This document shows, in pieces, positions 36,275-63,787 of a stretch of DNA of 64,000 nucleotides (position 1 is the first letter of the stretch; each line of letters starts with the position of its first letter). Source of the DNA: Patescibacteria group bacterium (GTDB taxonomy: Bacteria; Patescibacteriota; Minisyncoccia; Minisyncoccales; Staskawiczbacteraceae). Location of the stretch: positions 5,203 through 69,202 of the forward strand of contig JAHIOM010000014.1 of assembly GCA_018895235.1 (NCBI GenBank), read 5' to 3'. The position numbers were made by a program, and so were the translations under genes. A model generated the notes under the pieces. The model was not told the origin of the DNA and made no database searches. It was given only the letters and a program-made list of their open reading frames with translations.

Positions 36275-37732
36275 TTATAACGCTCCTAAATCCAGTGCGA
36301 AATCCACTCTTATCTTCTCTACAAAATCTTGAGCATGACTTACCAATATTATAGCACCGTCGAAATTATTTATTGCTTTTGCAATTACTGGGATATGACG
36401 GAAATTAATGTGATTTGTGGGTTCATCTAAAATAAGTAATCCCGGTTTTTCTAATGCTATTGTGGCAAAAGCAACTAGCCCTTTTTGGCCTTCGGAAAGC
36501 GATCCAATTTTAGCTTTTAATATCTCTGCATCTAAAAGAAACCCGGCTGCGTGAGCTCGAAGCCCCTGTTCTGTTCCCGCACCGTCTATTGCTTTTGAAA
36601 ACGTTTGATATATAGTTGCGTTAAAATCCAATGTTGAAAAATCTTGCCTATAATATCCGATTTTGACTCCTGCTTTAATATGCTCACCTTTTGCGTGGCC
36701 AGAGGCCAGTTTTTCTAAGAGTGTAGTTTTACCAATTCCGTTTGGCCCAGTTAAAAGTAACCTTTCTCTTTTATTCAAGGTTACATTTACTTTTTTATTT
36801 ATAAATTTATGATTTTTTGCAATTGCGACGGAATCCAATTGTAAAATTACTCCTCCAATATCTTTTTGAGCCGGAATTATAAAGTTTTTTATTGTTTTAT
36901 CTTCTCTCCTTAATTTTACGACCTCGCTTTCTAACTCCTCAATCTTTTTTTTCATTTTTGAAGAAACATCTCTAAGATGTCCTCCTTTTTGAGCAAAAAA
37001 GTTAGCCTGTTCTTTTCTATGAGAAATATCTTTTTCTAGTCGAGCATTTTTCATGCGTTCCCTTTCTAAACGGAGCTTAATTTCTTCGACAACGGTAAAA
37101 TAGTCCCCCGTATATTGCTCAACTTTTTTTGAAAATATATCTAAATATAATACGCCCTGCGTAAAAATATTTAAAAAATCTGCATCGTGGGAAATTACAA
37201 TACAGGTTTTGGGATAATCAATAATAAATTTCGTTAAGTACTCAATGCCCGCTTTATCTAAATTATTTGTAGGCTCATCTAATAAAAGCAGATCCGGATC
37301 CTGTATCAAAGCAGACGCCAAAAGAACCTTTGCCTGCTGACCGCCTGAAAGGTTTTTAATCAATCTGTCATGCGGAATAACAAGATTTACTATTTCTAAA
37401 ACATCGTCAATTTTTCTATCAATATCATATATTTTTCCTGAAAAACAATTTTCAAAAAATTCTTTTACAGTTAACTTCAAATCTTCACGAGGAATTACTT
37501 GCTTAGCTGTAGCTATTGTTAAATCTTTATTTGTATTAACCGCGCCCGAATCGGGTTTTGATTCGCCAGTTATTAATTGGAAGATTGTGCTTTTTCCTGC
37601 GCCATTCTGCCCCATTAATGTAATTTTTGAACCCCTGCGTATAGAAAAATTAGCCTCATTTAAAATTGGCTTGTTTATTCCCCACTCAAAAGAAACATTA
37701 TTAAATTTTACTATTATTTCATCACCCGACAT
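36275..37732 (-). CDS. ABC-F family ATPase (two ABC domains, no TM domain)
   Basis: GQNGAGKST / LSGGQQAKV and GPNGIGKTT / LSEGQKG, joined by a charged linker. A -10-like TAAGAT ends 7 nt before the ATG. Confidence 0.85.
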   Translation of the reverse strand: MSGDEIIVKFNNVSFEWGINKPILNEANFSIRRGSKITLMGQNGAGKSTIFQLITGESKPDSGAVNTNKDLTIATAKQVIPREDLKLTVKEFFENCFSGKIYDIDRKIDDVLEIVNLVIPHDRLIKNLSGGQQAKVLLASALIQDPDLLLLDEPTNNLDKAGIEYLTKFIIDYPKTCIVISHDADFLNIFTQGVLYLDIFSKKVEQYTGDYFTVVEEIKLRLERERMKNARLEKDISHRKEQANFFAQKGGHLRDVSSKMKKKIEELESEVVKLRREDKTIKNFIIPAQKDIGGVILQLDSVAIAKNHKFINKKVNVTLNKRERLLLTGPNGIGKTTLLEKLASGHAKGEHIKAGVKIGYYRQDFSTLDFNATIYQTFSKAIDGAGTEQGLRAHAAGFLLDAEILKAKIGSLSEGQKGLVAFATIALEKPGLLILDEPTNHINFRHIPVIAKAINNFDGAIILVSHAQDFVEKIRVDFALDLGAL

Positions 37733-37775
37733 AATGAATATCTTACTCTATTCTCAGACAAATATCCATCCCACT

Positions 37776-37900
37776 AAAAAAACCACCCCGATTAAAAGGT
37801 GGCTTCCGGGAAAATGCGCGGCATCGTGTACAACGTTAGAACCAGAATACAGAAAAATCAGGAATTTATTTATATCCCGAACTTAAATCTACAAACCGAT
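37776..37900 (-). repeat. Conserved terminator module plus GCGCGG-element, type C copy
   Basis: AAAAAAACCACCCCGATTAAAAGGTGGCTTC, then GCGCGGCATCGTGTACAACGTTAGAACCAGAATAC...GGAATTTATTTATATCCCGAACTTAAATC. Confidence 0.65.
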
Positions 37901-37910
37901 TAGTTAAAAT

Positions 37911-38210
37911 TTATTTACAAAACGTTACCCTTAAATCACGCCCGAGCGCCCCTGCTATTTTTTCGAGAATATCTATTGAAAAATTCTGCTGACCCGATTC
38001 CATTCTTGCTATATTACTTTGTTTGGTCCCTATCTTTTTTGCTAATTGCGCTTGAGAGATTTTTTTCTTTTTTCTTAATTTCAAAATCTGATAAGCAATT
38101 TCTAATTGTTTACCGTATTCGTCATAGTATTTTTTGAACTCAGGATTCTTCAGCTGTCTTTTCAAATAAACCTTGAAGTCTTGTGCTTTTTGTATTTTTT
38201 TATTATCCAT
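37911..38210 (-). CDS. XRE-family HTH antitoxin (HigA-like)
   Basis: ISQAQLAKKIGTKQSNIARMESGQ helix-turn-helix. Directly downstream of the toxin gene. Confidence 0.8.
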   Translation of the reverse strand: MDNKKIQKAQDFKVYLKRQLKNPEFKKYYDEYGKQLEIAYQILKLRKKKKISQAQLAKKIGTKQSNIARMESGQQNFSIDILEKIAGALGRDLRVTFCK

Positions 38211-38273
38211 AATTATAAGTGAGGAAGAAATGAAAATAAATTTTCATTTCGATCGAACGAGTAATTATATAAA

Positions 38274-38651
38274 CTAGTTTCTATAGATTTTAGGGTTACT
38301 TAATACGTCTTTATAATTTTGTTCTGCTTTTTTAATTTCAACCAACGGCGTTTTAGCTGTTTTCTTTAAAAATGCGTGAAGCAAAATTATATTTTTCCCG
38401 ACGAAAGTAAAATAAAATATTCTGTGTTTTTTTGAAGAAAAATCGACTCTCAATTCTCGAATTTTACCCTTAATATGTTTTGAATATGGTTCGTCTAAAA
38501 CTCCTTTGTTTGTTCTCAAAAATTCTATATATTTAAAAACCTTAGCTTTCTCTTTAATCTCTAAATTATCAATATATTCTAAAACAGGGCTTTTATCGTT
38601 CTTCGATTCTTTATAAAATTTTACTTCATACTCTGTATTATTATATATCAT
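38274..38651 (-). CDS. RelE/HigB-superfamily toxin (phage Gp49-like)
   Basis: VKFYKESKNDKSPVLEYID...IRELRVDFSSKKHRIFYFTFVGKNIILLHAFLKKT pattern. Toxin-first gene order. Confidence 0.75.
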   Translation of the reverse strand: MIYNNTEYEVKFYKESKNDKSPVLEYIDNLEIKEKAKVFKYIEFLRTNKGVLDEPYSKHIKGKIRELRVDFSSKKHRIFYFTFVGKNIILLHAFLKKTAKTPLVEIKKAEQNYKDVLSNPKIYRN

Positions 38652-38724
38652 ATACGATATATGTATGTCAATACCCTCGCACTAAAACTGACCTTTTATT
38701 TTATCATATCACTAAATCAAAAAT

Positions 38725-38825
38725 CCGAGAATTACCTCGGGAATTTTGCGCGGGCAGTGAGACGCAGTTCGAACTTGGTTTTGGGTGAATTTCCCCGTAG
38801 AACCGGTAATTGTTTTGAAATAAAA
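38725..38825 (-). repeat. Terminator hairpin plus GCGCGGG-element, type A copy
   Basis: CCGAG AATTAC CTCGG (T-run on the minus strand), then GCGCGGGCAGTGAGACGCAGTTCGAACTTGGTTTTGGGTGAATTTCCCCGTAGAACCGGTAATTGTTTTGAAATAAAAA. Terminators flank it on both sides. Confidence 0.7.
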
Positions 38826-38861
38826 AAGAACCCTGCTCACATTAATACAACACAGGACTCT
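38822..38861 (-). terminator. Intrinsic terminator after the SPFH gene
   Basis: Minus strand: AGAGTCCTG(17 nt)CAGGGTTCT followed by TTTTTT. Two stem positions pair only as G-U on the minus-strand RNA and would be A-C mismatches on the plus strand. Confidence 0.7.
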
Positions 38862-38892
38862 TTTTTTATATTTTAACTTTAAGTTTATTTTA

Positions 38893-39606
38893 TTATTGTT
38901 GCGGTTGGTCTTTTTTCCCGAAAGATTCAAATGCCCTTAAAATCTCAAGGGGCACGGCGAATACTATTGTGTTTGATTGGTCAGAACTTATATCATTAAT
39001 AGACTGAAGAGTCCTTAAGTGCAGTGCTCCTTTTGATTCGGCAAGTACTTTTGCTGCTTTTGACATGTTGTCAGCAGCAATAACTTCTCCTTCTGCCTTT
39101 ATAATCATGGCTCTTTTTTCTCTTTCGGCTTCAGCTTGTTTTCCTATAACTCTTTTCATCTCTTCTGGCAAAACAATGTCTTTTAATTCAACATTCGAAA
39201 CCTTAATCCCCCAAGGGTCAGTGGCGTCATCTATAATTTTTCTTATGTTTTCTGAAACTCTGTCTCTTTGAGAAAGCAAATCATCTAAATCAACTTGGCC
39301 CACGGCGTTTCTCATTGTTGTCTGAGCTAATTGGGAAATAGCATAGTAAAAGTTTTCCACTTCCAGAACCGCTTTGTCGGCATCCTGGACTTTATAATAA
39401 ATAACCGCATTTACGCCAACAGAAATATTGTCTTTTGTAATCGCTTCCTGATTTGGGACGTCCACCGCCTTTACTCTTAAATCTATTTTTCTGTATGATT
39501 GGAAAATCGGCCACACCAGCCTCCAGCCGGGCTCCATTGTGCCGATATATTTTCCCAGCATAAATTTGACTCCTTTTTCATATTGGATTATCTGTTTGAT
39601 TGACAT
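38893..39606 (-). CDS. SPFH/Band 7 (stomatin-like) protein
   Basis: Typical SPFH core with the AEAEREKRAMIIKAEGE coiled segment. The frame stays open upstream to 39678 and encodes a TM helix (see findings). Confidence 0.85.
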   Translation of the reverse strand: MSIKQIIQYEKGVKFMLGKYIGTMEPGWRLVWPIFQSYRKIDLRVKAVDVPNQEAITKDNISVGVNAVIYYKVQDADKAVLEVENFYYAISQLAQTTMRNAVGQVDLDDLLSQRDRVSENIRKIIDDATDPWGIKVSNVELKDIVLPEEMKRVIGKQAEAEREKRAMIIKAEGEVIAADNMSKAAKVLAESKGALHLRTLQSINDISSDQSNTIVFAVPLEILRAFESFGKKDQPQQ

Positions 39607-39731
39607 CAGAATAATTGAAACAATTATAAAGATTGCAATATAGAGAAAACTTGTAAAAACTATATTTTTAAATTTAATTATTAATATTTACCTTTAATTT
39701 TATCTAATCAGTTTTACATACTTTTGTCAAC

Positions 39732-39955
39732 AAAAAACCACCTCAATTAAAGGGTGGCTTCCTGAAAAAGCGCGGGTGGCGGGACGATTTTCGAACTTTT
39801 GAGTGGGAAAAAGTATTCCCTTCCCCAGAACTTGTAGTTAGCCAAATAAGGCAGTTATTGGCGATTTCGGCGGATGGACAACGTTAGAACCAAAATACAA
39901 CAACAAAGTGAACATATTTATATGCCAGACCTAAGTCCAGCACCTACCCAATACT
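39732..39955 (-). repeat. Conserved terminator module plus tandem type B and type C elements
   Basis: AAAAAACCACCTCAATTAAAGGGTGGCTTC. Then GCGCGGGTGGCGGGACGATTTTCGAACTTTTGAGTGGGAAAAAGTATTCCC...GCCAAATAAGGCAGTTATTGGC. Then CGGCGGATGGACAACGTTAGAACC...GAACATATTTATATGCCAGACCTAAGTCC. Confidence 0.7.
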
Positions 39956-40360
39956 GATAAACAGTTAAATAACAGCTTAGGTATGGGGGGTAGTCCCAAA
40001 GTCTGATTTCTTTTTTAGATATAGATATAGCTCCTCCGCACAGAATTTGGATTTTAGACAAAAAGCCCTCCGTGTTTGGGAGAACTTAATGAAGGAATTA
40101 TTTTGCTCTTTTTATTTTTTTATCTTCTTCTATTAAAAATCTTGCTAGGTCTATTGGGTTAACTGGTACTGGAGTTTTAAATGTTTGATGTGCTACAAAA
40201 AAACACCCTTCTCTTGTACCACCCTTTGAATAACTAACAAGAAATCTTTTTGACTCTGATATTTTTTCATAAGTTTATTTTTTCTTTCATATTTTTATTC
40301 TTCTTTATTTTCTCCAAATAACTCCTCTTAGCAACTGGCGGTAATTAATAACTTCATAGT

Positions 40361-44070: not shown

Positions 44071-45180
44071 ATGAGAAAATTACGCATTGGACAAATTGCG
44101 CCGCTCAACGTACCCATCCCTCCAAAAAAGTACGGCGGAACCGAACGCATAATTAACGCTCTTTGCCGCGGGCTTTCTAATCGCGGCCATAAGATCTTTC
44201 TTTTTGCCGCGGCAGACGCAAAAACTGGAGGAAAAATAATCCCCATTATACCAAAAAGCCTTTGGACAAACAAAATCAAAGAGGCCACGCCTTACTATTC
44301 CTATGAAATGAATGTTATTTTACAAAAATCGCCCGGCCTTAAATTAGATATTCTTCACGACCACCTTGGGCCATTTAGTTTAGCCCTGTATGGGGGCCTT
44401 AACATTCCTATTTTGCACACTCTGCATGTTCCTATTAATAAAGATCGCGCTTGGGCCTACCGAAAATTAAATTCTAAATTAATCAGCATCTCTAATAATC
44501 AACGTAAAAACGCTCCTCGGCTTAATTATGTTGCCACTATTTACAACGGCACTGACACAAATCTGTTCCAATTCAATCCTAATCCTAAGGATTATTTACT
44601 GTTTTTGGGCGAGCTGGTGGAACGCAAAGGAGTTAGGGAAGCAATTTTGGCCGCAAAAAAACTTAAATTAAAACTAGTAATTGCGGGCCGTGTCCCACTG
44701 CAAACACAGAGGAAAGATTACTCTTTTTTCCAAAAATACGTAAAACCAAAATTAAATCGCGGCCGCATAGAATACGCAGGTGAAGTCGCCAAAGAAAAAG
44801 TTTCTAAACTTTACAGAGATGCGAAAGCCACGCTTTTCCCCATACGCTGGGAAGAACCATTTGGTCTTGTAATGATTGAATCAATGTCCTGCGGAACGCC
44901 AATTATTGCTTTTGCTAAGGGGTCTGTCCCGGAAATAATCAAAGATGGAGAAACCGGATTTATTGTTAATTTTTCTTTATCCGACATACGGGGAAACTGG
45001 ATTATTAAGAAAACGGGGATAGAAGGACTTTGCAAAGCGGTGGATAGAATTTACGCAATGCCTGAAAAAGAATACCGACAAATGAGAGAAAACTGCCGGA
45101 AACGCGCGGAAAAGAATTTCGCCATTAAGAGAATGGTAGATGAGTACGAAAAAGTGTACTACAAAATATTGCGAAAATGA
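44071..45180 (+). CDS. Glycosyltransferase family 4
   Basis: N-terminal YGGTERIINAL and C-terminal EPFGLVMIESMSCGTPIIA...PEIIKDGETGF. Confidence 0.85.
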   Translation: MRKLRIGQIAPLNVPIPPKKYGGTERIINALCRGLSNRGHKIFLFAAADAKTGGKIIPIIPKSLWTNKIKEATPYYSYEMNVILQKSPGLKLDILHDHLGPFSLALYGGLNIPILHTLHVPINKDRAWAYRKLNSKLISISNNQRKNAPRLNYVATIYNGTDTNLFQFNPNPKDYLLFLGELVERKGVREAILAAKKLKLKLVIAGRVPLQTQRKDYSFFQKYVKPKLNRGRIEYAGEVAKEKVSKLYRDAKATLFPIRWEEPFGLVMIESMSCGTPIIAFAKGSVPEIIKDGETGFIVNFSLSDIRGNWIIKKTGIEGLCKAVDRIYAMPEKEYRQMRENCRKRAEKNFAIKRMVDEYEKVYYKILRK

Positions 45181-45360
45181 ACTACAACTAACTTTTGGTT
45201 AAGATAAGAACATACGGCCAGAAATTTATTAACTCGCCAAATGAAAAGTTTTTACTGATGATCCTTTGTAGCCAGGCAAAATTAAAAAAACGAGAAATAC
45301 TTTCCTGCATAAAAAGTAAAATTGTAATAAGGAAAAAAATATTGAGCGTAGTACAATAAT

Positions 45361-45399
45361 AAAAAACAGCAGGGCAAAATATGCTCTGCTGTTTTTTTT
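45361..45399. terminator. Bidirectional terminator after the glycosyltransferase operon
   Basis: AAAAAA CAGCAG(13 nt)CTGCTG TTTTTTTT. Confidence 0.8.
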
Positions 45400-45434
45400 G
45401 TTGATTTATGATGTCTCGGCATCACTAGATACTA

Positions 45435-45775
45435 AATGCTGTAAGCGCGGGCGACGGGAGGAGTTGCCCGAAGGCATTGCCTCCTCGGTCGCCTAAGGCG
45501 ACTACCCTATCGGCTCGTCGCAATTCGGTGGAGAAACCATCCCGTCTGGGAGCAAAAAGTCCCCCGAAATTGAGGGACTTTTTGCTCTAGCGCGTCTTTA
45601 CGACGAAGTTAGAACCTATTTTATTGAAAATCTTTGACGATATTCTGCCCGCCGCCTGCGGCGGCGGGCAGAAACAGACCGAAAACGAATCGGCTCGCGG
45701 GCAAAAAATGGAGGGGTTTTAGGAGTTTGAGTCCCCGGAAATTTTTTGCCCGCCCGCTTTTTGAAATTTAATTCG
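45435..45775 (-). ncRNA. Long (about 340 nt), hairpin-rich member of the GCGCGGG-element family; class unknown
   Basis: Starts GCGCGGGCGACGGG. Contains GTCGCC TAA GGCGAC, a perfect 14-bp GAGCAAAAAGTCCC/GGGACTTTTTGCTC stem, the family motif GAAGTTAGAACC, CTGCCCGCCGC CTGC GCGGCGGGCAG, and a 13-bp GCGGGCAAAAAAT/ATTTTTTGCCCGC stem. Orientation is inferred from the other copies. Confidence 0.45.
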
Positions 45776-45777
45776 GG

Positions 45778-45803
45778 AAAAATGTCCAGCGATGGACATT
45801 TTT
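45778..45803. terminator. Bidirectional terminator at the island edge
   Basis: AAAATGTCCA GCGA TGGACATTTT. Confidence 0.7.
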
Positions 45804-45851
45804 GATAATTTTAAGTTTTTCTTTTGTGTGAAATTTTATCCACTTCGATAT

Positions 45852-46193
45852 TTATCCAAAACTCCTAGTTCCAACTAATACGCCCAGAAGCCAATATAAG
45901 AAAAAACCGACCCATATAAAAATAAATATTTTCAGTAAACACTCCATTGTCTTTTTAATCGGAGGTTTCTCTAAAAAATTATTGAGAAATTTTATTTTTT
46001 CGCCTAATTTCAGCAAAAGCCCCAATAATAATGAGCCACCAATTGATATTCCAAGTCCAACAGAAAACACCCTATCTTCTAATAGTGTAGAAGAGAACCC
46101 TCCGATTACTGTATACACAAAGAAAAGAAAACCCAAGACAAATACTATTATAAAAATTAAATAGATGATTAACTCTATAAGTTTTTCTTTCAT
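45852..46193 (-). CDS. Small membrane protein (113 aa)
   Basis: MKEKLIELIIYLIFIIVFVLGFLFF; 3-4 hydrophobic helices. Confidence 0.6.
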   Translation of the reverse strand: MKEKLIELIIYLIFIIVFVLGFLFFVYTVIGGFSSTLLEDRVFSVGLGISIGGSLLLGLLLKLGEKIKFLNNFLEKPPIKKTMECLLKIFIFIWVGFFLYWLLGVLVGTRSFG

Positions 46194-46197
46194 AATT

Positions 46198-46503
46198 TTA
46201 TTTGCCGAAGTTTGATGGTTTGAAAAATTCCCATATTTTTAATAGAATTTGTTTCGAAAAAAGAAATATTTTTTGTATAACTTCTTGCCAAAGGGTTAAA
46301 GTTCTTGGTCTAAAAGAAGAACAATCTCTGAATTCCTTAATTTGTTCATCGGTAAATTTTCTCGAAGTATCTGCTTCGCAATAATATCTTCCTCGATGAT
46401 TGGTTGTGGGTATCCCTTGCGGATTTATAAAAGATACTACCCCTTCGCCCTCTTTCAGATATTTACACTGGCCACATGTTGTTTTATTTTCCATATTATT
46501 CAA
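46198..46503 (-). CDS. Hypothetical Cys-containing protein (101 aa)
   Basis: ORF with CGQC...C...C. 4-nt gap to the next gene. Confidence 0.5.
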   Translation of the reverse strand: MNNMENKTTCGQCKYLKEGEGVVSFINPQGIPTTNHRGRYYCEADTSRKFTDEQIKEFRDCSSFRPRTLTLWQEVIQKIFLFSKQILLKIWEFFKPSNFGK

Positions 46504-46545
46504 GTTTTGTCCAGTTTTCTTTTTTGGGTTTATATTATAAAATTC

Positions 46546-46722
46546 TTACCAACAGGCAGGTCCCACGCATTGTTCATAATCTTCGGGGTAATCGTAAGAT
46601 GAAGTATTTGATTCCCAAATCACAGTTATAATGAACCAAATAAGAAAAACAATTACAACGATACCAATAATTAGACCAATAAAATCTTTAAAACTTTTTG
46701 GTTTTAAACCTTCAATGTTCAT
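46546..46722 (-). CDS. Small single-TM protein (58 aa; below the track cutoff)
   Basis: Hand translation: MNIEGLKPKSFKDFIGLIIGIVVIVFLIWFIITVIWESNTSSYDYPEDYEQCVGPACW. Confidence 0.45.
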   Translation of the reverse strand: MNIEGLKPKSFKDFIGLIIGIVVIVFLIWFIITVIWESNTSSYDYPEDYEQCVGPACW

Positions 46723-46744
46723 ATTCCTATGGATAAATTAAATG

Positions 46745-47104
46745 TTATATTTTAAAACCAATGCTATTCCTTTTCTTCTCTGCTCCTATGATGTCATTTT
46801 CTAATTTTTCTTTTATTTCTTCTAAACTCATACAATCATTGCCTTTTAGAAAATTATGGGCCTTAAAAACATAATCATCAGATAAATTGTTTTCTACTAT
46901 CATTTTCCTAATTATTAACTCCCCGAATTGTTTTAAAAATAATTCCGCTGTCCAACCAGGCACAATACTTTTGCAAGTACCTAAAAATATATCGGTAACA
47001 CCAATTTTAATATCTCTGTCTCCGACTTCGAATAACGCTTCTGTAACCTTACCATTTCTTTTACCATTTTTAGATATTAATAATTGTGAAAATTTTATAT
47101 CCAT
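46745..47104 (-). CDS. Hypothetical protein (119 aa)
   Basis: ORF only. 2-nt gap to the upstream gene. Confidence 0.5.
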   Translation of the reverse strand: MDIKFSQLLISKNGKRNGKVTEALFEVGDRDIKIGVTDIFLGTCKSIVPGWTAELFLKQFGELIIRKMIVENNLSDDYVFKAHNFLKGNDCMSLEEIKEKLENDIIGAEKKRNSIGFKI

Positions 47105-47106
47105 AA

Positions 47107-47580
47107 TTATTTTTGTTTTTCTAATCGTTTTGTTATATTAATGCCGAAAATTATACCGTAATACAATATCAGACCAAGAAGGATTATAATGATATTCTGA
47201 AAACGAAAAATCTTTTGATAATAAGGGGTAGAGTTTCTATCTAGATTCTCAAGAAAGAGGTTCACAAAAAGACTATGTTTTACTTCCATTTTATCTCCAT
47301 AATAATAACGATTACTCCGATAATCACATTTTACTTTACAATAATTAACTGCTTCTAAATAATTTAATTCTTCGTTTAACCATTTGTCTGCAACACAATT
47401 CTCAAAACATTTTTCAGCTCGAGCTTGGGATAAACTTTCAGGTATTGCTACAAAAAAAGGATATAAAAAATAAAGAATTAACAAAAAAAGGGGGATAAGA
47501 AATAAAAAGTATTTTCTTAAAAATAGTTTTATGTTTTTCTTGAGCATAATCTTCAAAATTTTCTTAATTTTTTCTTTCAT
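47107..47580 (-). CDS. Membrane-anchored protein, MKEKIK family (157 aa)
   Basis: MKEKIKKILKIM plus a TM helix. Conserved 5' module. Confidence 0.6.
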   Translation of the reverse strand: MKEKIKKILKIMLKKNIKLFLRKYFLFLIPLFLLILYFLYPFFVAIPESLSQARAEKCFENCVADKWLNEELNYLEAVNYCKVKCDYRSNRYYYGDKMEVKHSLFVNLFLENLDRNSTPYYQKIFRFQNIIIILLGLILYYGIIFGINITKRLEKQK

Positions 47581-47752
47581 AAATTATTTTATTGGTTTTC
47601 AGTTGATAACCTACAAATATTCCTACTGAAATCAAGATTAAATCTCCTATTTGTTCATTAGTAATACCAAAAAATCTAAGAATATATCCCATAAAAGAAC
47701 CTATCAATATAACAAATATCAAATTTATAATTATTTTAATTTTTTCTTTCAT
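47564..47752 (-). CDS. Small membrane protein, MKEKIK family (62 aa)
   Basis: Start set at MKEKIKIIINLIFVILIG, which carries the conserved 5' module. The track start at 47800 is less likely. Confidence 0.5.
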   Translation of the reverse strand: MKEKIKIIINLIFVILIGSFMGYILRFFGITNEQIGDLILISVGIFVGYQLKTNKIIYERKN

Positions 47753-47806
47753 GGGCTTATTTAACCCCACCCACTGCTCACTATGTCTTAATGGGGTCAA
47801 CTTAGT

Positions 47807-47983
47807 TTATTGATTATTGGAGTAGAATTTATCTTTGCACTCCAAACAAACAATTTTTCCTTCCTTTTTTTCATTTCTAACAAAATAGTAACTATCAATA
47901 CCTACTTTTATTTCTAACCCGCAAATATCGCAAACTTTATTTTCTCCAACTGGTGGATTTTGTTTTTTGATTACTTTTTCCAT
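47807..47983 (-). CDS. Small zinc-ribbon protein (58 aa; below the track cutoff)
   Basis: Hand translation: MEKVIKKQNPPVGENKVCDICGLEIKVGIDSYYFVRNEKKEGKIVCLECKDKFYSNNQ (CxxC...CxxC). Confidence 0.5.
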   Translation of the reverse strand: MEKVIKKQNPPVGENKVCDICGLEIKVGIDSYYFVRNEKKEGKIVCLECKDKFYSNNQ

Positions 47984-48017
47984 TCTTTTATTAAAATTTC
48001 AATACTAATAGTTTTTC

Positions 48018-48281
48018 TTATAGATTAGTCCAACTTGGGTCTTTCCCGAAACACTGTCCAAACCAAAAACTAAAAAAAATTAAAATTGCAAGGCTAACAT
48101 ATTCACTACCAAAGACAAGACCGACACCCATACTTGTAAGAAGCATAATTATAAAATATCTCAATAAATGTTTCCCAAACCCCAAATTCTTTAGGATGAA
48201 CCACTTCTTATATTTTCCGAGATAATACCCCACAAAGAAAAGAATAATAAATACAGTTGCACCGATTAAAAATTCTTTCAT
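48018..48281 (-). CDS. Small membrane protein (87 aa)
   Basis: MKEFLIGATVFIILFFV; three hydrophobic helices. Confidence 0.55.
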   Translation of the reverse strand: MKEFLIGATVFIILFFVGYYLGKYKKWFILKNLGFGKHLLRYFIIMLLTSMGVGLVFGSEYVSLAILIFFSFWFGQCFGKDPSWTNL

Positions 48282-48285
48282 AGAT

Positions 48286-48591
48286 TTATTTGTTTAATAT
48301 CGATAGCCCAACTTGTTTTCTGAAAAATGAACACCTGTTAGTAGTAGAAGAGTCGTATTTACACGCTTTAAGGTGATGTTTAATGGCTTCTTTTTCGTTT
48401 TTAATATTTATCCCTTTATATCCTCTCCCAACAAACTTTGCGACAGCAAGAGATTGAAGAGCAACTGCTATCCTTTTATATAATGGTGTTTGATAGTGCA
48501 AATTCCATCTTTTCCAAAAACTATTCTCTTCTTTTTTGAAAAATATTCTTTCTTCTTCAGTAAGTTTATAAATCTTAAATACTTGTTTCAT
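48286..48591 (-). CDS. Hypothetical basic protein (101 aa)
   Basis: ORF only. 4-nt gap to the next gene. Confidence 0.5.
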   Translation of the reverse strand: MKQVFKIYKLTEEERIFFKKEENSFWKRWNLHYQTPLYKRIAVALQSLAVAKFVGRGYKGINIKNEKEAIKHHLKACKYDSSTTNRCSFFRKQVGLSILNK

Positions 48592-48628
48592 AGATTTATT
48601 TAGTAAGTTGGTGGTTTACAAATATTTA

Positions 48629-49072
48629 TTACTTTTTCATTTCTTGGTCAATTTTCCAAATAAATCCAACCCTTTTCATTTCATAGCTTGCAGAATAAGA
48701 ATAATCCTTCCCATTTATATTTCGCATAAGTTCAACTTGTAAAAATGAACGGTCACTTCCGAACTTATGTGAAACACTCTGGATTTTAAAATTTCTTATT
48801 GATGGTTCATCGGATATTTTTTCTTTTTCACACCTTTCCTTCCACTTATCAATGTCGTGAGATAGATAACTTATAAAAGAATCACAATCGCCAGTTATTC
48901 GATACTCAAAAGCTCGATTAAAGCTTTTTTTAATAAAAAACTTACTGTTTATGCCAAAATCAATAATAAAACAACCCACTAAAACAAAAATCAGTGCTAC
49001 TGCTAATATCATTATTAAAGCTACTTTGTTTTTGTTTATCCAGTTTAAAATTGTTTTAATTTTTTCTTTCAT
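48629..49072 (-). CDS. Membrane-anchored protein, MKEKIK family (147 aa)
   Basis: MKEKIKTILNWINKNKVALIMILAVALIFVLVG. Overlaps the upstream gene by 4 nt. Confidence 0.6.
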   Translation of the reverse strand: MKEKIKTILNWINKNKVALIMILAVALIFVLVGCFIIDFGINSKFFIKKSFNRAFEYRITGDCDSFISYLSHDIDKWKERCEKEKISDEPSIRNFKIQSVSHKFGSDRSFLQVELMRNINGKDYSYSASYEMKRVGFIWKIDQEMKK

Positions 49073-49494
49073 AATCTTATTTCTCCATTTGAATACTCTA
49101 AAAGAAATTTCTTATAATCTTCCCACTGCTCAGGGAATCGAAAAGAAGTAATTCTATGGTGTGTCAAAGCATTATAAATAAAATGTTCTCTATCGGGGAG
49201 TCTTTGAATAACATATAAACAACTATCTTCTTTCGGACTATAAAAAAGCATTTGAAAAGAATTAAAATCAGAGCCAGCAAAAATTCCTTTGTTTCCCTTA
49301 TCGATTTCTTCTTTTATTGATTCGGCATATTGTTCACATTCAGTCTTTTTATTAAAATAACTTTCGTTTTGTTCTGATTTAACTACTCGAAGTTCCTGTT
49401 TGACCTGATAAAACTTATAAAAACTAAGAGAAATACCAATAAGGAGAATACTTATTATAGTTAAAATTATTACTTTCTTAATTTTTTCTTTCAT
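49069..49494 (-). CDS. Membrane-anchored protein, MKEKIK family (141 aa)
   Basis: MKEKIKKVIILTIISILLIGISL. Confidence 0.6.
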   Translation of the reverse strand: MKEKIKKVIILTIISILLIGISLSFYKFYQVKQELRVVKSEQNESYFNKKTECEQYAESIKEEIDKGNKGIFAGSDFNSFQMLFYSPKEDSCLYVIQRLPDREHFIYNALTHHRITSFRFPEQWEDYKKFLLEYSNGEIRL

Positions 49495-49506
49495 AAATTT
49501 ATAATC

Positions 49507-49773
49507 CTAAATTTCATTGTTGGCTTTTTTCTGTTTTTTTATTTTAACTTTTAATTGTATGGTTTTTACTACCCAAGTAATTCCAGCAATCCAAAATATT
49601 AAACCAAAAATATCTGCTATCCACCCTTCTCCTAAAAATAAATAGCAAAATGCAAATCCCAATAACCCCAGTAATGCTGTTTTGCCAGCCTCTTTTCTGT
49701 CTATTTTTCTATATTGCCACCATTTCTTTTTCTCTTTTTTATATTCTTGATTTTGTGTTTTTTGTTCTTCCAC
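49507..49773 (-). CDS. Small membrane protein (88 aa)
   Basis: Two hydrophobic helices flanked by Lys-rich tails. Confidence 0.5.
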   Translation of the reverse strand: MEEQKTQNQEYKKEKKKWWQYRKIDRKEAGKTALLGLLGFAFCYLFLGEGWIADIFGLIFWIAGITWVVKTIQLKVKIKKQKKANNEI

Positions 49774-49784
49774 AGATTTATTTA

Positions 49785-50264
49785 TTATTTACAGAGTTCT
49801 TGTTGAACGAAATATTCCCGCTGACGCTCTTCTAAAATGGGGATATATTTTTGAACAAGTTCTGGTGTATAATCGGGAATATGCAACCAAGGAGAACCAC
49901 CAGTTTTTTCATAATTTTGCATATAGCCACGGAAATATTCCAATAATTCTTCTGTTGTGTCCGGAGCCCAAGAAGCATAAATAGGTTGGTTACTTTGTTC
50001 GGTATAATATGCTATTTTAGTCTCTTGAGGGGCAAGTTTTAATTCATTAGCTTTTCTACAAGCCACCTCCTTGTCGGCTCTACTTTCAAGAATCGTTACC
50101 CTTCCGATTAGAGAGTCTATTTGTTCAGCTAAAATCTGTATTGCTTCTTCGATTGTTTTACCTTGGATTAAAGAGGAAACAAAAGTTCCTCCGAGAGCAA
50201 TAGTTGGGAAAGCAACGAAGCCGATGAGGACACTTATTATAATAATTTTAATTACTTGTTTCAT
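49785..50264 (-). CDS. Secreted or anchored protein (159 aa)
   Basis: MKQVIKIIIISVLIGFVAFPTIALG signal/anchor sequence. Confidence 0.55.
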   Translation of the reverse strand: MKQVIKIIIISVLIGFVAFPTIALGGTFVSSLIQGKTIEEAIQILAEQIDSLIGRVTILESRADKEVACRKANELKLAPQETKIAYYTEQSNQPIYASWAPDTTEELLEYFRGYMQNYEKTGGSPWLHIPDYTPELVQKYIPILEERQREYFVQQELCK

Positions 50265-50366
50265 AGATTTATTTTACCTTATTTTACCCCACTGTGCTAT
50301 TCACTGTTTCTAAATTAAAAATTACCTAGCAATGGACGGTTTTAGTTAAACCCTAGGCTATATTTT

Positions 50367-51368
50367 TCAATCTTTATAATAAACGTTATGGATGTTCTGA
50401 ACTATCCCCTGAACTTCGTAGTTGCCGATATTCAACCAAGTAGGAACCCCTAAAAAGCATAAACCGTTCTCATCTTTTGAAAGCGCTACGCCGCCAGAAT
50501 TGCCACTATCAATCTTTGCAGAAACATAATAATTAGAATATGGCAAATTCCCCGTAACTTCTACGGAACGGTCATACCCGCTGATAATGCCGTTTGTAAC
50601 CTGTTTAGAGGAGATTTGGCCCGTAGTCCCTTGAAATTCAATCTGTCGTTTGGCAAATGCGGGATATCCTACGATAACCATCGGAGACCCTTCGGGCATT
50701 TTGTAGGGACACAATCTTAAACTAGAAAGGCTATAATTCAAGTCTTTTATGGGTTCAGACCAACTTGATGATGCTGCCGATATAGTCATCTTCAATATCG
50801 CAATATCGGTATAAGAATTCCACCTATATATTGTTGATCTATCAAGATTATAATGGCCTACCATCTGCTCTAAGTTGTTTTCTGGCGTCACCGCGCAGTC
50901 TCCCGTCCCATTAACTACGTGATTATTCGTTATCACGACATAACCGATGTCTAAATCCATCAGAAACCCGGATCCCTCTCCCCCAATACAAGACACCTCC
51001 GTTACTCCTCCCAAATAAGGACTCAATTCCGAGGGCTGAATGGTAAAATTTTCTTTGGGTTTACTCTTTTCGGTTGTTAATTCTTCTTCTAACCCCGTCA
51101 TCTCTTGGTCTTTCTTTTGGTTTTCTATTTTTGCTTTCTCTATCTCTATTTTTGATTCTTCTAATGTTTTTCTTGCTTCTTCTAACATTTCCTGCTGCTC
51201 TAAAAATAGTTCTTGGTTTTGTTTTTCTCGTTGAGTTTGTTGGGTTTGATAACTCTTGAGCTGAAAGTAACCATAATAACTAATACCGCCAACAATAATT
51301 AACCCAACAATAACGCTAATAAAAACTGGTGTTTTGATAAAGCCTTTTTGGCTATTTTTTTCTTTCAT
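50367..51368 (-). CDS. Membrane-anchored trypsin-like (S1) serine protease with coiled-coil spacer
   Basis: MKEKNSQ plus a TM helix, a Q/E-rich coiled coil, then VITNNHVV (His), DIAILKM (Asp) and GNSGGVAL (Ser). Confidence 0.75.
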   Translation of the reverse strand: MKEKNSQKGFIKTPVFISVIVGLIIVGGISYYGYFQLKSYQTQQTQREKQNQELFLEQQEMLEEARKTLEESKIEIEKAKIENQKKDQEMTGLEEELTTEKSKPKENFTIQPSELSPYLGGVTEVSCIGGEGSGFLMDLDIGYVVITNNHVVNGTGDCAVTPENNLEQMVGHYNLDRSTIYRWNSYTDIAILKMTISAASSSWSEPIKDLNYSLSSLRLCPYKMPEGSPMVIVGYPAFAKRQIEFQGTTGQISSKQVTNGIISGYDRSVEVTGNLPYSNYYVSAKIDSGNSGGVALSKDENGLCFLGVPTWLNIGNYEVQGIVQNIHNVYYKD

Positions 51369-51372
51369 AGGT

Positions 51373-51810
51373 TTATTTATCCTCATCTGCTGATTTCATC
51401 TTTTTGAGAATCCTCGCTTTTGCTTTAACGACTTCGTCACTTGTGATATTTATATTTATTGTTTGGGGCAAAGCTCCTTCGGGCTCGATTCTTCTCTTTA
51501 CTTTGTTGTATTCTCTGATAGCGGCAACCTTAGAAGATAAATCTGCTTTCTGTGTAATAACAAATCCCAATTCTCTATCAACGACTTCATTGTTTATGTA
51601 AATATCTAACAACTCACGGATGCGGGCTGTAACGTAATCTTTTGTCAATAATCGATACGCATGCTGCCTCGCCGCCCTATGGGTTGTCTTCCCCCCAAAC
51701 GCTTTAATGTAAGTTTGCGTTCCATTACTAAAGCAATCACGGTCTGTGACAAAGATGCGGCAAAACACTTCTTCTTTCGCAGTAAGTTGTCCGTTAATTC
51801 TTTTCCCCAT
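51373..51810 (-). CDS. Phage terminase small subunit-like protein
   Basis: LTAKEEVFCRIFV...TQTYIKAFG...AARQHAYRLLTKDYVTARIRELL matches the Terminase_2-type HTH pattern. Confidence 0.7.
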   Translation of the reverse strand: MGKRINGQLTAKEEVFCRIFVTDRDCFSNGTQTYIKAFGGKTTHRAARQHAYRLLTKDYVTARIRELLDIYINNEVVDRELGFVITQKADLSSKVAAIREYNKVKRRIEPEGALPQTININITSDEVVKAKARILKKMKSADEDK

Positions 51811-52344: not shown

Positions 52345-52500
52345 AAAAAGCCCACCACGGGTAGCGGCCGAAGCCACTCATACCGGTTTCCCGATATGGC
52401 AGAACATGCGACCCCATGATGGGTTCTTTATGCATGTTCTAACTTTTTATGCCATGTCTTGCAAAAGCAAGGGTTAGGCATCAATATTAAGTTGTTAAGT
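52345..52500 (-). promoter_or_regulatory. GC-rich structured region upstream of 51876..52340
   Basis: Minus strand: CTTGC TTTT GCAAG; 9-bp AGAACATGC(22 nt)GCATGTTCT; GGTA-GTGGC TTCG GCCGC-TACC (UUCG tetraloop); then GGGCTTTTTGTAT just before the ATG. Confidence 0.4.
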
Positions 52501-55098: not shown

Positions 55099-55335
55099 TT
55101 AATACGACAACTTTATTCCAAGTTTATCCGCTAATTGATGCAACCACTTCTCGTGCCTATCAATTTTCTGCGAAAGCATTAACATTTCCTGGAAATATGC
55201 GTCTGCTTTTTCCGCATATTTATCTACGGCAGTTTGTAACTGAACGAAACCTTTTTCCACTTTATCAAATCTTTTATCAATACCAACAAACTTTTCATCT
55301 AAATATGTAATTAACTCTGAAAAATCTTCTTTCAT
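55099..55335 (-). CDS. Small helical protein (78 aa), paralog of 63545..63787
   Basis: The C-terminal 45 aa are near-identical between the two copies (AVDKYAEKADAYFQEMLMLSQKIDRHEKWLH..ADKLGIKL). Confidence 0.65.
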   Translation of the reverse strand: MKEDFSELITYLDEKFVGIDKRFDKVEKGFVQLQTAVDKYAEKADAYFQEMLMLSQKIDRHEKWLHQLADKLGIKLSY

Positions 55336-56527: not shown

Positions 56528-57382
56528 TTACTCTATGTACGGAGAAATATCAACAGCGCCAGTTGGTTTCGGTATCCTATAGGCAATAATAGCTCCTTGC
56601 CAGTAGAAATTAGGCAAAGATACTAATTTCTCGTCTTGCCCCACAGAAACTAACGCAGAGGAACCAGAAATTAAAATAAATCCTCCACCTTTTAACGCTT
56701 TGCATACTATATCTTTTGAAGTTCTTATCCCATAACCCCTTTCTTTATCTTTTTTAACTGAATTACCCTCCATCGCTTCTGTAATAGCTTCCGCATCTGA
56801 TAATTTTAACTCTTTTTCCTCTTTATAGGTATTAGCAAATCCTCTCCCACAATCAGCTATACAAATATCTAAATAGTTTTTATTGGGATAAAATTGCCCA
56901 AAAACAAAACCTGATTCTTTCTTACTATGTTCAAAAATGTTTGTTATTAACTCTGCTATAGGGTAACAGACAGCATTTTGAGCTCCAGATATATTACCAA
57001 GTGTTTTATAAATTTTTTCTGAAAATAATGATTCTAATCTTTCTCTATCAACCGTCTTCTCTTTATTCAATACGCTAATTGGTATATAAGTTTTGTATTT
57101 TTGAATCTGTCGTTGGAAAGAAGATATAGAATTTACGCCTTTTGGAAAACTTATTTTTTCTAAGTAAGATTTTATATTGCAAGTGTCTATCTTAACTTCG
57201 CTCTGGGTTTCGTTTATATATGCACTGATTGGCAATATTAAAAGCGGAAAAACCCAATTTAGATATGACAAATCAAATTCCAACTTCTCGCCAAAAGAGA
57301 CACCTTTAAAGGCATTGTAAAAAGAACCCAATTGAGCAACAAGAGATTCGTTATTAGGCTGTAGGATTGTAATACTTTTCAT
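56528..57382 (-). CDS. GHKL-type ATP-binding protein (anti-sigma/HATPase-like), no sensor or TM domain
   Basis: N-box-like ELITNIFEHS, G1-like IADCGRGF and G2-like ERGYGIRT. Confidence 0.55.
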   Translation of the reverse strand: MKSITILQPNNESLVAQLGSFYNAFKGVSFGEKLEFDLSYLNWVFPLLILPISAYINETQSEVKIDTCNIKSYLEKISFPKGVNSISSFQRQIQKYKTYIPISVLNKEKTVDRERLESLFSEKIYKTLGNISGAQNAVCYPIAELITNIFEHSKKESGFVFGQFYPNKNYLDICIADCGRGFANTYKEEKELKLSDAEAITEAMEGNSVKKDKERGYGIRTSKDIVCKALKGGGFILISGSSALVSVGQDEKLVSLPNFYWQGAIIAYRIPKPTGAVDISPYIE

Positions 57383-57432
57383 AACTTATTATTTAATACT
57401 ACCAAAAAATTACCAAAAAGGCGATTTTCTTT

Positions 57433-57580
57433 GCGCGGGTGGCGGGACGATTCCTGTCCCGTAGTGGTCGCCTAGGGCGACCTACTACTGGGGTTCGAAC
57501 TTTTGAGTGGGAGAAAGCGTTCCCCTATCTTGAGTTGATTGTTAGCCAAGTGAGGCAATTATTAGCGTTAATTTAGTTTA
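57433..57580 (-). repeat. Type B element with a 41-nt hairpin insertion
   Basis: GCGCGGGTGGCGGGACGATT[CCTGTCCCGTAGTGGTCGCCTAGGGCGACCTACTACTGGGG]TTCGAACTTTTGAGTGGGAGAAAGCGTTCCCC...GGCAATTATTAGCGTTAATTTAG. The insertion is at exactly the same point as in the 55896 copy. Confidence 0.7.
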
Positions 57581-57603
57581 TCATATCACCATTATTTTTG
57601 GAT

Positions 57604-57635
57604 AAAAAAAGCCCCTTGATGTTATCGCGAGGCTT
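57604..57635 (-). terminator. Intrinsic terminator after the membrane/TPR operon
   Basis: Minus strand: AAGCCTC(13 nt)GGGGCTT followed by TTTTTT. The U-G pair exists only on the minus-strand RNA. Confidence 0.65.
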
Positions 57636-57653
57636 ATTTAAAAATACTATTAA

Positions 57654-62899: not shown

Positions 62900-63490
62900 T
62901 TTTACCAATGACCTCCTCCCCGCCCTCCCTGGGGGTCGGAGCGGGGTTTCCTTTCGTGTCATGAGAGTTCTCCAGTTAAATCAATCCCTCGGTCGAAGTT
63001 ATTCTGTCTTTCGATGTATTTTCTAATGTTCGCCTCATTGAGTCCAACAGTAGATACAAAATATCCAGTGCCCCAGATGCCTTTATCGTCGTACATTTTT
63101 GAAACAAAGTCGAACCTTTCGCGAAGATAAATACTGGTTTGGGATTTTACCACAGAGACAACGAAGGATATTGAGTATTTTGGTGGTATTTCCATCAAAA
63201 GATGGACATGGTCATCGCCAGTATTTATCTTCGCGAAATACCAATCTGGGTATTTCTTTTGTATTTGGTAGAGTCTTTTTACCAGTTCCTCTCGGACATA
63301 ATGTTTCAAAAATTTACGACGGTAAAGAGTGCCCCAAACCAAGTGGTATTCTGTCTGGTATACGCTGTGATTTAACTGTCGAACCCTCATGCTAACAGCA
63401 TACCACACCGCGGTGTGGTATGCCCATTCATCCCCGCCCTCGGCGGACTCTGAAGCGTTTCAACGCCTCAGGCGGGGTTTCCTGTAAGGA
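62900..63490 (-). mobile_element. IS200/IS605-family element (tnpA only)
   Basis: The Y1 transposase gene is flanked by imperfect palindromes. Both ends share TCCCCGCCCTC...GCGGGGTTTCCT. The right end also has ATACCACAC CGCG GTGTGGTAT. Confidence 0.7.
62959..63408 (-). CDS. tnpA: IS200-type Y1 (HUH) transposase
   Basis: YHLVWGTLYRRKFL, DDHVHLLMEIPPKYS (HUH) and GTGYFVSTVG (catalytic Tyr region). Confidence 0.85.
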   Translation of the reverse strand: MWYAVSMRVRQLNHSVYQTEYHLVWGTLYRRKFLKHYVREELVKRLYQIQKKYPDWYFAKINTGDDHVHLLMEIPPKYSISFVVSVVKSQTSIYLRERFDFVSKMYDDKGIWGTGYFVSTVGLNEANIRKYIERQNNFDRGIDLTGELS

Positions 63491-63544: not shown

Positions 63545-63787
63545 TTAATATGGAAGTTTTATTCCTAATTTGTCAGCAACTAAATGCAACCATTTTTCGT
63601 GCCTATCAATTTTCTGCGACAACATTAACATTTCTTGAAAATATGCGTCAGCTTTTTCGGCGTACTTATCAACAGCGGTCATTAAATTCTGGATATCAAC
63701 TTTGTCTGCCTTGGTTTCTAATACTTTCTCAATTTTCGTAAAACGTTCGTCTAAATATGTAATTAACTCTGAAGAATCTTCTGCCAT
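63545..63787 (-). CDS. Small helical protein (80 aa), paralog of 55099..55335
   Basis: See 55099..55335. Confidence 0.65.
   Translation of the reverse strand: MAEDSSELITYLDERFTKIEKVLETKADKVDIQNLMTAVDKYAEKADAYFQEMLMLSQKIDRHEKWLHLVADKLGIKLPY

What the first reader, a model, noticed from the sequence alone, without database searches (positions are those of the whole stretch)
45435..45775. About 340-nt hairpin-rich giant member of the element family at the glycosyltransferase/phage-island boundary
The region opens with the family signature GCGCGGGCGACGGG. About 165 nt later it carries the family motif GAAGTTAGAACC. Between these, and beyond, it has five strong GC-rich stems in an AT-rich genome, including perfect 14-bp, 11-bp and 13-bp helices. 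One stem, GGTCGCC TAA GGCGAC, is nearly the same hairpin as the 41-nt insertion in the copy at 57433 (GGTCGCC TAG GGCGACC), which shows module sharing. It sits between two bidirectional terminators in 670 nt of non-coding DNA, where the plus-strand GT island meets the minus-strand small-protein island. It could be the full-length parent RNA of the shorter copies, or a separate large ncRNA that shares modules with them.
Basis: seen in the sequence. Interest (0 to 1): 0.6.

Follow-up and report, generated by a model that had tools for sequence, protein, structure and literature searches.

The report
Stacked intergenic repeats and terminators
This 340-base hairpin-rich stretch in an uncultured Parcubacteria (CPR) genome is most likely two diverged, back-to-back copies of a lineage-specific intergenic repeat family with ordinary two-way transcription terminators between them, not one large conserved RNA.

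Summary
The sequence features are real. The exact signature starts at 45445 and GAAGTTAGAACC at 45605. There are three perfect 13-14 bp palindromes and a hairpin shared with the copy at 57433. The fold is far more stable than shuffles, on both strands. The region lies in a 671-nt ORF-poor gap between convergent genes.

The 'one giant RNA' reading is not supported:
- No Rfam family matches.
- Orthologous loci in relatives (GT operon 82-90% aa identity; 113-aa ORF 59-70%) have different neighbours and no such element.
- A profile of the short family scores it only at chance level (E about 0.8).

What does hold:
- 45445-45575 aligns colinearly with the long family copy at 57433 (z about 9).
- 45590-45616 is a short 'GTTAGAACC' subfamily unit.
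- The two halves look like a diverged tandem duplication.
- Four of the hairpins are A-tract/stem/T-tract bidirectional terminators, which are typical of this genome.

The family has three subtypes. It is always oriented opposite to the flanking genes, lies next to terminators, occurs in several Parcubacteria, and sits at synteny breaks. It is unannotated and its function is unknown. Evidence on which strand folds conflicts. It most resembles mosaic intergenic repeats (BIME/BOX-like). Moderate-to-low interest.

The parts
45361..45397 (.). Bidirectional intrinsic terminator T1 (A6-stem-loop-stem-T8). It closes the + strand glycosyltransferase operon and bounds the region on the left.
45445..45549 (+). 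Unit 1: a diverged long-form family element. It has the box GCGCGGG-CGAC-GGGA (45445-59), hairpin GGAGG..CCTCC (45457-84), shared hairpin GGTCGCC-TAA-GGCGAC (45487-502), ATCGGCTCG (45509-17) and TGGAGAAACCATCCCGTC. GACGGGA (45453-59) can pair with TCCCGTC (45540-46).
45550..45587 (.). H3: a perfect 14-bp palindrome, GAGCAAAAAGTCCC / GGGACTTTTTGCTC, of A-tract/stem/T-tract terminator type. Its 5' arm is homologous to the family core TGGGAGAA..TTCCCC, so its 3' arm looks like an inverted duplication.
45590..45616 (+). Short 'sf3-like' family unit, GCGCG-TCTTTACGACG-AAGTTAGAACC.
   Evidence: weak, E = 5.4
45643..45673 (.). H4: a perfect 14-bp GC-rich palindrome, TTCTGCCCGCCGCC-TGC-GGCGGCGGGCAGAA, with no T-run. 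It may be a palindromised copy of the box.
45678..45694 (-). Small hairpin GCCGATTCGTTTTCGGT, overlapping the second copy of ATCGGCTCG (45689-97).
45697..45753 (.). H5: a perfect 13-bp outer stem, GCGGGCAAAAAAT / ATTTTTTGCCCGC, with an inner GGGG..CCCC stem. It is terminator-type and is the homologue of H3 in the second half (AGTCCCCGGAAATT, TTTTTGCCCGC).
45778..45803 (.). Bidirectional intrinsic terminator T4, directly 3' of the minus-strand ORF 45852-46193. It bounds the region on the right.

Best explanation
The region is not one RNA gene. It is a local build-up of two diverged, tandem units of a Parcubacteria-specific intergenic repeat family, with terminator-type hairpins between and around them.

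Unit 1 runs 45445-45587. Unit 2 runs about 45590-45775. In this genome and its relatives the family ('E' elements, subtypes sf1, sf2 and sf3) normally sits as T - E - T'. It lies between the terminator of one gene and the terminator or promoter of the next, and always has the GCGCGGG box on the strand opposite the genes. Here two such units lie head to tail with no gene between them. They sit at the convergent boundary between a conserved glycosyltransferase operon and a variable block of small ORFs.

Inferred steps:
- The units arose by duplication or recombination among family copies.
- Their perfect 13-14 bp palindromes arose by DNA-level inverted duplication.
- Their only likely present-day activity is bidirectional transcription termination and insulation at this boundary.

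What the E core itself does is not established.
For: - Colinear similarity of 45445-45575 to the long copy at 57433, z about 9, and of 45590-45616 to sf3.
- Insertions in other copies fall at the same site, between GGGACG and TTCGAAC.
- Direct repeats inside the region at 164-180 nt spacing (ATCGGCTCG, AGTCCCC[C/G]GAAATT, TTTTTGC..GC). Half against half aligns at 47 against 28 +/- 5.7.
- 45361-97, 45550-87, 45697-753 and 45778-803 all have the A-tract/stem/T-tract design. The genome's other terminators share it (e.g. 32826-61, 14341-67, and the eight CCACC..GGTGG copies).
- About 25 family copies in the window and in L001-L004, L009, L015, L016 and L045 are antisense to the flanking genes and next to terminators or promoters.
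- The element is missing from orthologous sites, which have different neighbours in every relative.
- Homology between L009 and the window ends within 2 nt of an E element's end.
- No Rfam match and no + strand promoter.
Against: - The half-against-half similarity is modest; one of 500 shuffles reached 54.5.
- The family profile does not detect the region significantly, so membership rests on pairwise similarity to a single long copy from the same genome.
- Very high fold stability, a possible closing helix (GACGGGA/TCCCGTC) and a wobble-pair asymmetry in subtype sf2 are what a structured transcript would show.
- Only six orthologous contexts and about 45 loci could be inspected.
Confidence: 0.55

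Rival explanations
1. A single large structured non-coding RNA on the + strand. It would be an expanded member, or the parent, of the small-element family, with variable hairpins inserted at the family's variable loop.
For: - Fold z-score of -6.5.
- The shared hairpin module and the colinearity with the copy at 57433.
- Insertions fall at one site, as in the variable arms of RNAs.
- The sf2 stem GGTTCT x AGAACC has 15 G.U pairs and 3 mismatches on this strand, against 0 G.U and 18 mismatches on the other.
Against: - No Rfam hit.
- No conservation at orthologous sites or elsewhere.
- Both strands fold equally well.
- The stems are perfect palindromes without wobble pairs or bulges.
- Internal terminator-type hairpins would truncate a transcript.
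- No promoter on +.
- The sf3-long hairpin favours the opposite strand.
Confidence: 0.12
2. A recombination scar. The E boxes would be att-like sites derived from a tRNA 3' end, marking junctions of exchangeable gene segments. The region would then be the junction left where the small-ORF, terminase-bearing block (45.8-52.4 kb) joined the chromosome.
For: - The first 15 nt are identical to the reverse complement of the T-stem and acceptor 3' end of a tRNA-Asp(GUC) in L003.
- In gene sense, the copy at 57433 reads as a variable-arm-like hairpin, then GGGAC-AGGAAUC-GUCCC, then GCCACCC-G.
- All copies are direct repeats.
- Synteny breaks at E elements.
- L045 has a different 600-nt insert between an sf2 and an sf3 element where the window has two genes.
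Against: - No integrase, recombinase or reverse transcriptase in the window.
- ARAGORN and Rfam call no tRNA here.
- The segments between E copies include housekeeping genes (TrpRS/TyrRS-type synthetase, CorA).
- Orthologous E copies are inherited vertically, at about 80-90% identity.
- No direct repeat pairs the region with the far end of the block.
Confidence: 0.18
3. A non-autonomous derivative of an IS200/IS605-type element (a PATE/MITE or REP-like element), mobilised as single-stranded DNA by the Y1 transposase encoded at 62959-63408.
For: - A Y1_Tnp gene lies in the window, and another lies next to the 78-aa gene in L050.
- GC-rich hairpins in an AT-rich genome.
- Uniform orientation of the copies.
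Against: - The IS has its own, different end hairpins (TCCCCGCCCTC).
- The region shares no sequence with them.
- The strand favoured by the sf2 wobble pairs is probably the leading-strand template, not the lagging-strand template used by this transposase family. This is inferred from GC skew and from the orientation of the IS.
- No target-site pattern.
Confidence: 0.05

Closest known systems
Bacterial interspersed mosaic elements (BIME/REP clusters) of enterobacteria, and the modular BOX elements of Streptococcus pneumoniae
   Same: Short GC-rich hairpin-forming modules combined in variable mosaics. They are confined to intergenic DNA at gene 3' ends and near terminators, are multi-copy, and sometimes pile up in tandem clusters.
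   Different: No sequence similarity. The E core (GCGCGGG-N4-GGGAC-N3-TTCGAAC...TGGGAGAA) is not itself a palindrome. All copies have one orientation relative to genes. No RAYT flanked by inverted copies. The lineage is Parcubacteria.
Bidirectional intrinsic (Rho-independent) terminators
   Same: 45361-97, 45550-87, 45697-753 and 45778-803 are A-tract/GC stem/T-tract hairpins between convergent genes.
   Different: There are four in 440 nt, far more than needed. Two have extra GC clamps, and one arm is homologous to the repeat-family core.
tRNA 3'-end att sites of integrative elements
   Same: On the gene-sense strand the box reads ..TCCCGTCGCCCGCGC, identical to the T-stem and acceptor 3' end of a relative's tRNA-Asp(GUC). 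Copies are direct repeats at synteny breaks.
   Different: No intact partner tRNA, no integrase, and 4-5 extra bases between the TTCGAA and TCCC parts. Housekeeping genes lie between copies.
LOOT RNA (Rfam RF03000), present at 52363-52480(-) in the same window
   Same: An orphan structured RNA motif of environmental bacteria. It contains the same GUUAGAAC octamer.
   Different: The region does not match the LOOT model at any threshold. The architecture is different.

Membership tests
Any Rfam 15 family (RNase P, tmRNA, 6S, SRP, group I/II intron parts, tRNA, LOOT and others) | Covariance-model score at or above the gathering threshold | tested here: not met
   Nothing reaches gathering. The best hits at E up to 10 are terminator-like hairpin matches far below threshold.
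Local 'E' element family (sf1/sf2 core) | 5' box GCGCGGG-N4-GGGA | tested here: met
   45445-45459, exact.
Local 'E' element family (sf1/sf2 core) | TTCGAAC box 3 nt after GGGACG, followed by TGGGAGAA..TTCCC | tested here: not met
   There is no TTCGAAC at that position. Only ATTCGG..TGGAGAAACCATCCC and TGGGAGCAAAAAGTCCCCC are found, displaced by about 70 nt of hairpins.
Local 'E' element family (sf1/sf2 core) | Significant score against the profile of 17 copies | tested here: not met
   The nine true copies score E from 1e-12 to 1e-17. The region scores 4.2 bits (E = 0.83), 1.6 bits (E = 5.4) and 5.2 bits (E = 0.39).
Local 'E' element family (long form, copy at 57433) | Colinear similarity, including the inserted hairpin | tested here: met
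   (68.5 against a shuffle maximum of 43.5).
Local 'E' element family | Box-first strand opposite to the adjacent gene, and next to a terminator | tested here: met
   The adjacent ORF 45852-46193 is on the minus strand, with terminators on both sides.
Intrinsic terminator | GC-rich stem-loop followed by a T-run | tested here: met
   45361-97 (+), 45778-803 (+), 45577-61 (-), 45694-78 (-). From the sequence itself, the A and T tracts make 45550-87 and 45697-753 two-way.
tRNA or tRNA-like gene | Cloverleaf, or acceptor and T-arm pairing | tested here: not met
   ARAGORN at default settings finds only tRNA-Val at 524-596. The Rfam tRNA model finds nothing here. Only 15 nt match a tRNA 3' end.
REP/BIME with RAYT | A Y1 transposase gene flanked by inverted copies of the repeat | tested here: not met
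   The Y1 gene at 62959-63408 is flanked by unrelated hairpins in direct orientation.
Integron attC array | Imperfect inverted R''/R' core sites (RYYYAAC..GTTRRRY) and an IntI integrase | tested here: not met
   The element ends are not inverted repeats. No integrase in the window.

The most novel reading that the evidence does not exclude
The E elements, with this region as an expanded double copy, could be a new class of small structured RNAs of Parcubacteria. They would be transcribed antisense to the 3' ends of neighbouring genes, carry a box resembling a tRNA 3' end, and have a stem whose wobble pairs all fall on one strand. They would mark or control the boundaries of exchangeable gene segments.
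Probability: 0.15. Interest if true: 0.6.

Novelty: new variant of a known kind. Interest (0 to 1): 0.33.

Why it matters
The region itself is probably a by-product: stacked repeats and terminators at a rearrangement-prone gene boundary. The family it belongs to is more interesting. It is an unannotated, strictly oriented intergenic element with three subtypes. It is shared by several Parcubacteria genera and always sits between transcription signals and at synteny breaks. If it proves to be an RNA or a recombination site, it would say something about how the very small genomes of candidate-phyla-radiation bacteria organise or reshuffle their transcription units. It would also give a marker for segment boundaries in their fragmented metagenomic assemblies.

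Tried and rejected
- **Rfam.** Gathering scan of the whole window and E-value scans of 45100-46000, 37700-40000 and 57380-57640. Only LOOT and tRNA-Val were found elsewhere.
- **tRNA or tmRNA idea.** ARAGORN at default and relaxed settings gave only noise.
- **Coding idea.** The + strand reading frame through the core stops after 8 codons, and the 41-nt insertion breaks the frame (from the sequence).
- **Integron attC idea.** No inverted core sites and no integrase.
- **Phage origin.** Four viral-collection scans. Three found nothing, and the GGACRACGTTAGAACC hits were chance matches inside coding DNA.
- **Genome and metagenome scans for the short core.** These found family copies only in Parcubacteria. 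The GC-rich hits L005-L007, L011, L013 and L017 are chance.
- **Orthologue walking.** From the GT4 gene and from the 113-aa ORF; no counterpart was found.
- **Walking from the 78-aa gene.** More distant genomes (L048, L050) carry neither E nor T motifs.
- **Consensus folding of sf1 and sf2 on both strands.** Little covariation.
- **Promoter search for a + strand transcript.** Nothing found.
- **GC skew as a guide to replication direction.** Suggestive only.

Full report
**Context.** The window is 35% GC and carries housekeeping genes: aminoacyl-tRNA synthetases, an intein-split DnaE, GyrB, GatB and others. Identical proteins are named Patescibacteria/Parcubacteria in public records. The finding lies in a 671-nt gap with no ORF of 55 aa or more. 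The gap separates the last gene of a + strand glycosyltransferase operon (44071-45180, GT4) from a minus-strand 113-aa ORF (45852-46193). That ORF opens a block of small unknown ORFs which also holds a terminase small-subunit homologue.

- The signature GCGCGGGCGACGGG starts at 45445, and GAAGTTAGAACC at 45605.
- The hairpin GGTCGCC-TAA-GGCGAC (45487-502) recurs only in the copy at 57466-81.
- There are three perfect palindromes of 14, 14 and 13 bp (45550-87, 45643-73, 45697-753), plus GGAGG/CCTCC.
- The fold is 6.5 to 7.6 sd more stable than shuffles, but equally so on both strands.
- Terminator-like hairpins at 45361-97 and 45778-803 bracket the region.

**The family.**
- A profile of 17 copies finds nine clear members in the window, all on the + strand: 33554, 38748, 39770, 54468, 55378, 55896, 57433, 58826 and 63830 (E from 1e-12 to 1e-17).
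- There are two core subtypes. sf1 is GCGCGGG-TGGC-GGGACG-ATT-TTCGAAC..TGGGAGAA..TTCCC. sf2 has CAGT and CAG in the variable positions.
- A shorter third subtype, sf3, is GCGCGGG-RTCGTGGACRAC-GTTAGAACC. It occurs at 37816, in degenerate form at 39858 and 32858, and in long forms in L015 and L045.
- Copies at 55896 and 57433 carry 27-nt and 41-nt hairpin insertions at one site, between GGGACG and TTCGAAC.
- Exact-pattern scans found the family only in Parcubacteria MAGs and metagenome contigs: L001-L004, L008-L010, L012 and L014-L016. None turned up in viral contigs.
- In every case the box-first strand is opposite to the flanking genes.
- Read in gene sense, an element ends ..GTTCGAAC-N3-GTCCC-N4-CCCGCGC-A. 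One of two things follows within 10-35 nt. The first is a terminator hairpin whose loop is also conserved (CCACC-TTTTAATTGA-GGTGG-T6; eight copies; compensatory CCGCC/GGCGG in L003). The second is a perfect TTGACA-16-TATAAT promoter driving a 78-80-aa coiled-coil ORF.
- Often a second terminator lies on the other side, so the element is insulated from both neighbours.

**How the region relates to the family.**
- The profile sees it only at chance level: 4.2 bits, E = 0.83 at 45445-61.
- Pairwise, however, 45445-45575 is colinear with the whole long copy at 57433. The order is box, small hairpin, GGTCGCCTARGGCGAC hairpin, TCG..TT, then TGGGAG..CCCC..TTGAG. The score is 68.5 against 25.9 +/- 4.7 for shuffles.
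- In that alignment the 5' arm of the 14-bp palindrome 45550-87 corresponds to the family core TGGGAGAA..TTCCCC. The 3' arm therefore looks like an inverted duplication.
- 45590-45616 matches sf3 (37, against a shuffle maximum of 29.5).
- The second half repeats landmarks of the first at 164-180 nt spacing: ATCGGCTCG, AGTCCCC[C/G]GAAATT and TTTTTGC..GC. The two halves align at 47 against 28 +/- 5.7. This suggests a diverged tandem duplication but does not prove it.
- The hairpins at 45361-97, 45550-87, 45697-753 and 45778-803 all have the A-tract/stem/T-tract design of this genome's other perfect, two-way terminators (32826-61, 14341-67, 32369-98).
- So the region reads as T - unit 1 - T' - unit 2 - T' - T. 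This is the family's usual 'terminator, element, terminator' arrangement, twice, with no gene in between.

**Conservation.**
- The three-gene GT operon is conserved in relatives (GT4 at 82-90% aa identity). The DNA downstream of it differs in each: a small ORF plus MFS gene, a HIT gene, a 325-nt gap and 109-aa ORF followed by DXP reductoisomerase (Dxr)/IspD, and a restriction-modification block. None contains anything like the region.
- Homologues of the 113-aa ORF (59-70% identity) are followed by MazG.
- None of the region's own modules occurs in any other locus fetched or in viral contigs.
- Within my reach, therefore, the region is private to this genome.

**What the family might be.**
- Synteny analysis shows vertical inheritance. 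L009 1318-2104 matches window 37814-38675 at 88%, with sf3 and sf2 at the same places.
- Homology stops within 2 nt of the sf3 end. L009 has an extra sf2 there. L045 has a 600-nt GC-rich ORF-free insert between an sf2 and an sf3 element, where the window and L009 have two genes. E elements therefore coincide with rearrangement junctions.
- On the gene-sense strand the box resembles a tRNA 3' end. The region's first 15 nt equal the reverse complement of the T-stem and acceptor 3' end of a tRNA-Asp(GUC) in L003. No tRNA fold is detected, and no integrase is present.
- Strand evidence conflicts. The sf2 stem GGTTCT x AGAACC shows 48 Watson-Crick pairs, 15 G.U pairs and 3 mismatches on the box-first strand. 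On the gene-sense strand it shows 48, 0 and 18. This favours a folded box-first strand. In contrast, the inner hairpin of sf3-long (GACAG-GCUCAGGAUAAA-CUGUY) has its G.U pairs on the gene-sense strand. The sf3-long outer stem covaries without any strand information (GGUUC/GAACC against GGCUC/GAGCC).
- No convincing promoter was found for either strand.
- I therefore treat the family's function as open. The nearest analogy is the mosaic intergenic repeats (BIME/REP, BOX) that sit at gene 3' ends. That is a statement about what it resembles, not about membership.

**Verdict.** The 'giant RNA/parent RNA' interpretation is not supported. The most economical reading is a stack of two diverged family units and bidirectional terminators at a variable gene boundary (confidence about 0.55). 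The rivals are a genuine structured RNA (0.12), a recombination or att-type scar (0.18) and an IS200-derived element (0.05).

Noticed in passing
window 52363-52480 (-): A full-length match to the LOOT RNA motif (RF03000; 79.7 bits, E = 2e-13). It lies between a 160-aa ORF and a divergent 241-aa ORF at the edge of the small-ORF/terminase block. It contains the octamer GUUAGAAC that also occurs in the sf3 elements.
   Followed up: partly
window 62900-63470: An IS200-type insertion. The Y1 transposase gene (62959-63408, minus strand) is flanked by GC-rich hairpins that share TCCCCGCCCTC (62904-56 and 63417-61). It is inserted just after a conserved terminator.
   Followed up: partly
window 55099-55335 (-) and 63545-63787 (-): Two paralogous 78/80-aa coiled-coil ORFs. 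Each has a perfect TTGACA-16-TATAAT promoter 7 nt from an E element and is followed by the conserved terminator. There are 178 homologous protein clusters across Parcubacteria, often on very short contigs. In L050 the gene sits beside a 226-aa Y1 transposase. The L015 copy has an in-frame TAA.
   Followed up: partly
window 33514-45, 37774-805, 39729-60, 54413-44, 55051-82, 55832-63, 58769-800, 63491-522: A terminator hairpin, CCACC-TCAATTAAAA-GGTGG, with a conserved loop is repeated eight times and shared with other genomes. L003 has the compensatory CCGCC/GGCGG. Conservation of a terminator loop is unusual and is unexplained.
   Followed up: partly
L045 1005-1600: An ORF-free stretch of about 600 nt at 48% GC in a 37% GC genome, predicted to be highly structured. 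It lies between an sf2 and an sf3-long element where the window has a 125-aa gene and an HTH gene. There is no Rfam match and no similarity to other loci.
   Followed up: partly
window 3925-9516: The DNA polymerase III alpha gene is split. A PHP/N-terminal part, a LAGLIDADG ORF and a C-terminal part with an intein splicing domain suggest intein or homing-endonuclease interruptions.
   Followed up: no
window 46165-51395 (starts of minus-strand ORFs): The small ORFs of the block share a repeated start region, TTTAATTTTTTCTTTCAT, on the + strand (that is, ATGAAAGAAAAAATTAAA). This suggests paralogous N-termini or a shared translation-initiation context.
   Followed up: no
window 37816-38210 and 39858-40300; L009 1320-1713: The sf3 element and a conserved AT-loop hairpin block (..GGNATRTAAATA..) lie directly 3' of a 99-aa Cro/C1-type HTH gene in both the window and L009. 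A decayed second copy of this gene region appears upstream of the composite element at 39770.
   Followed up: partly
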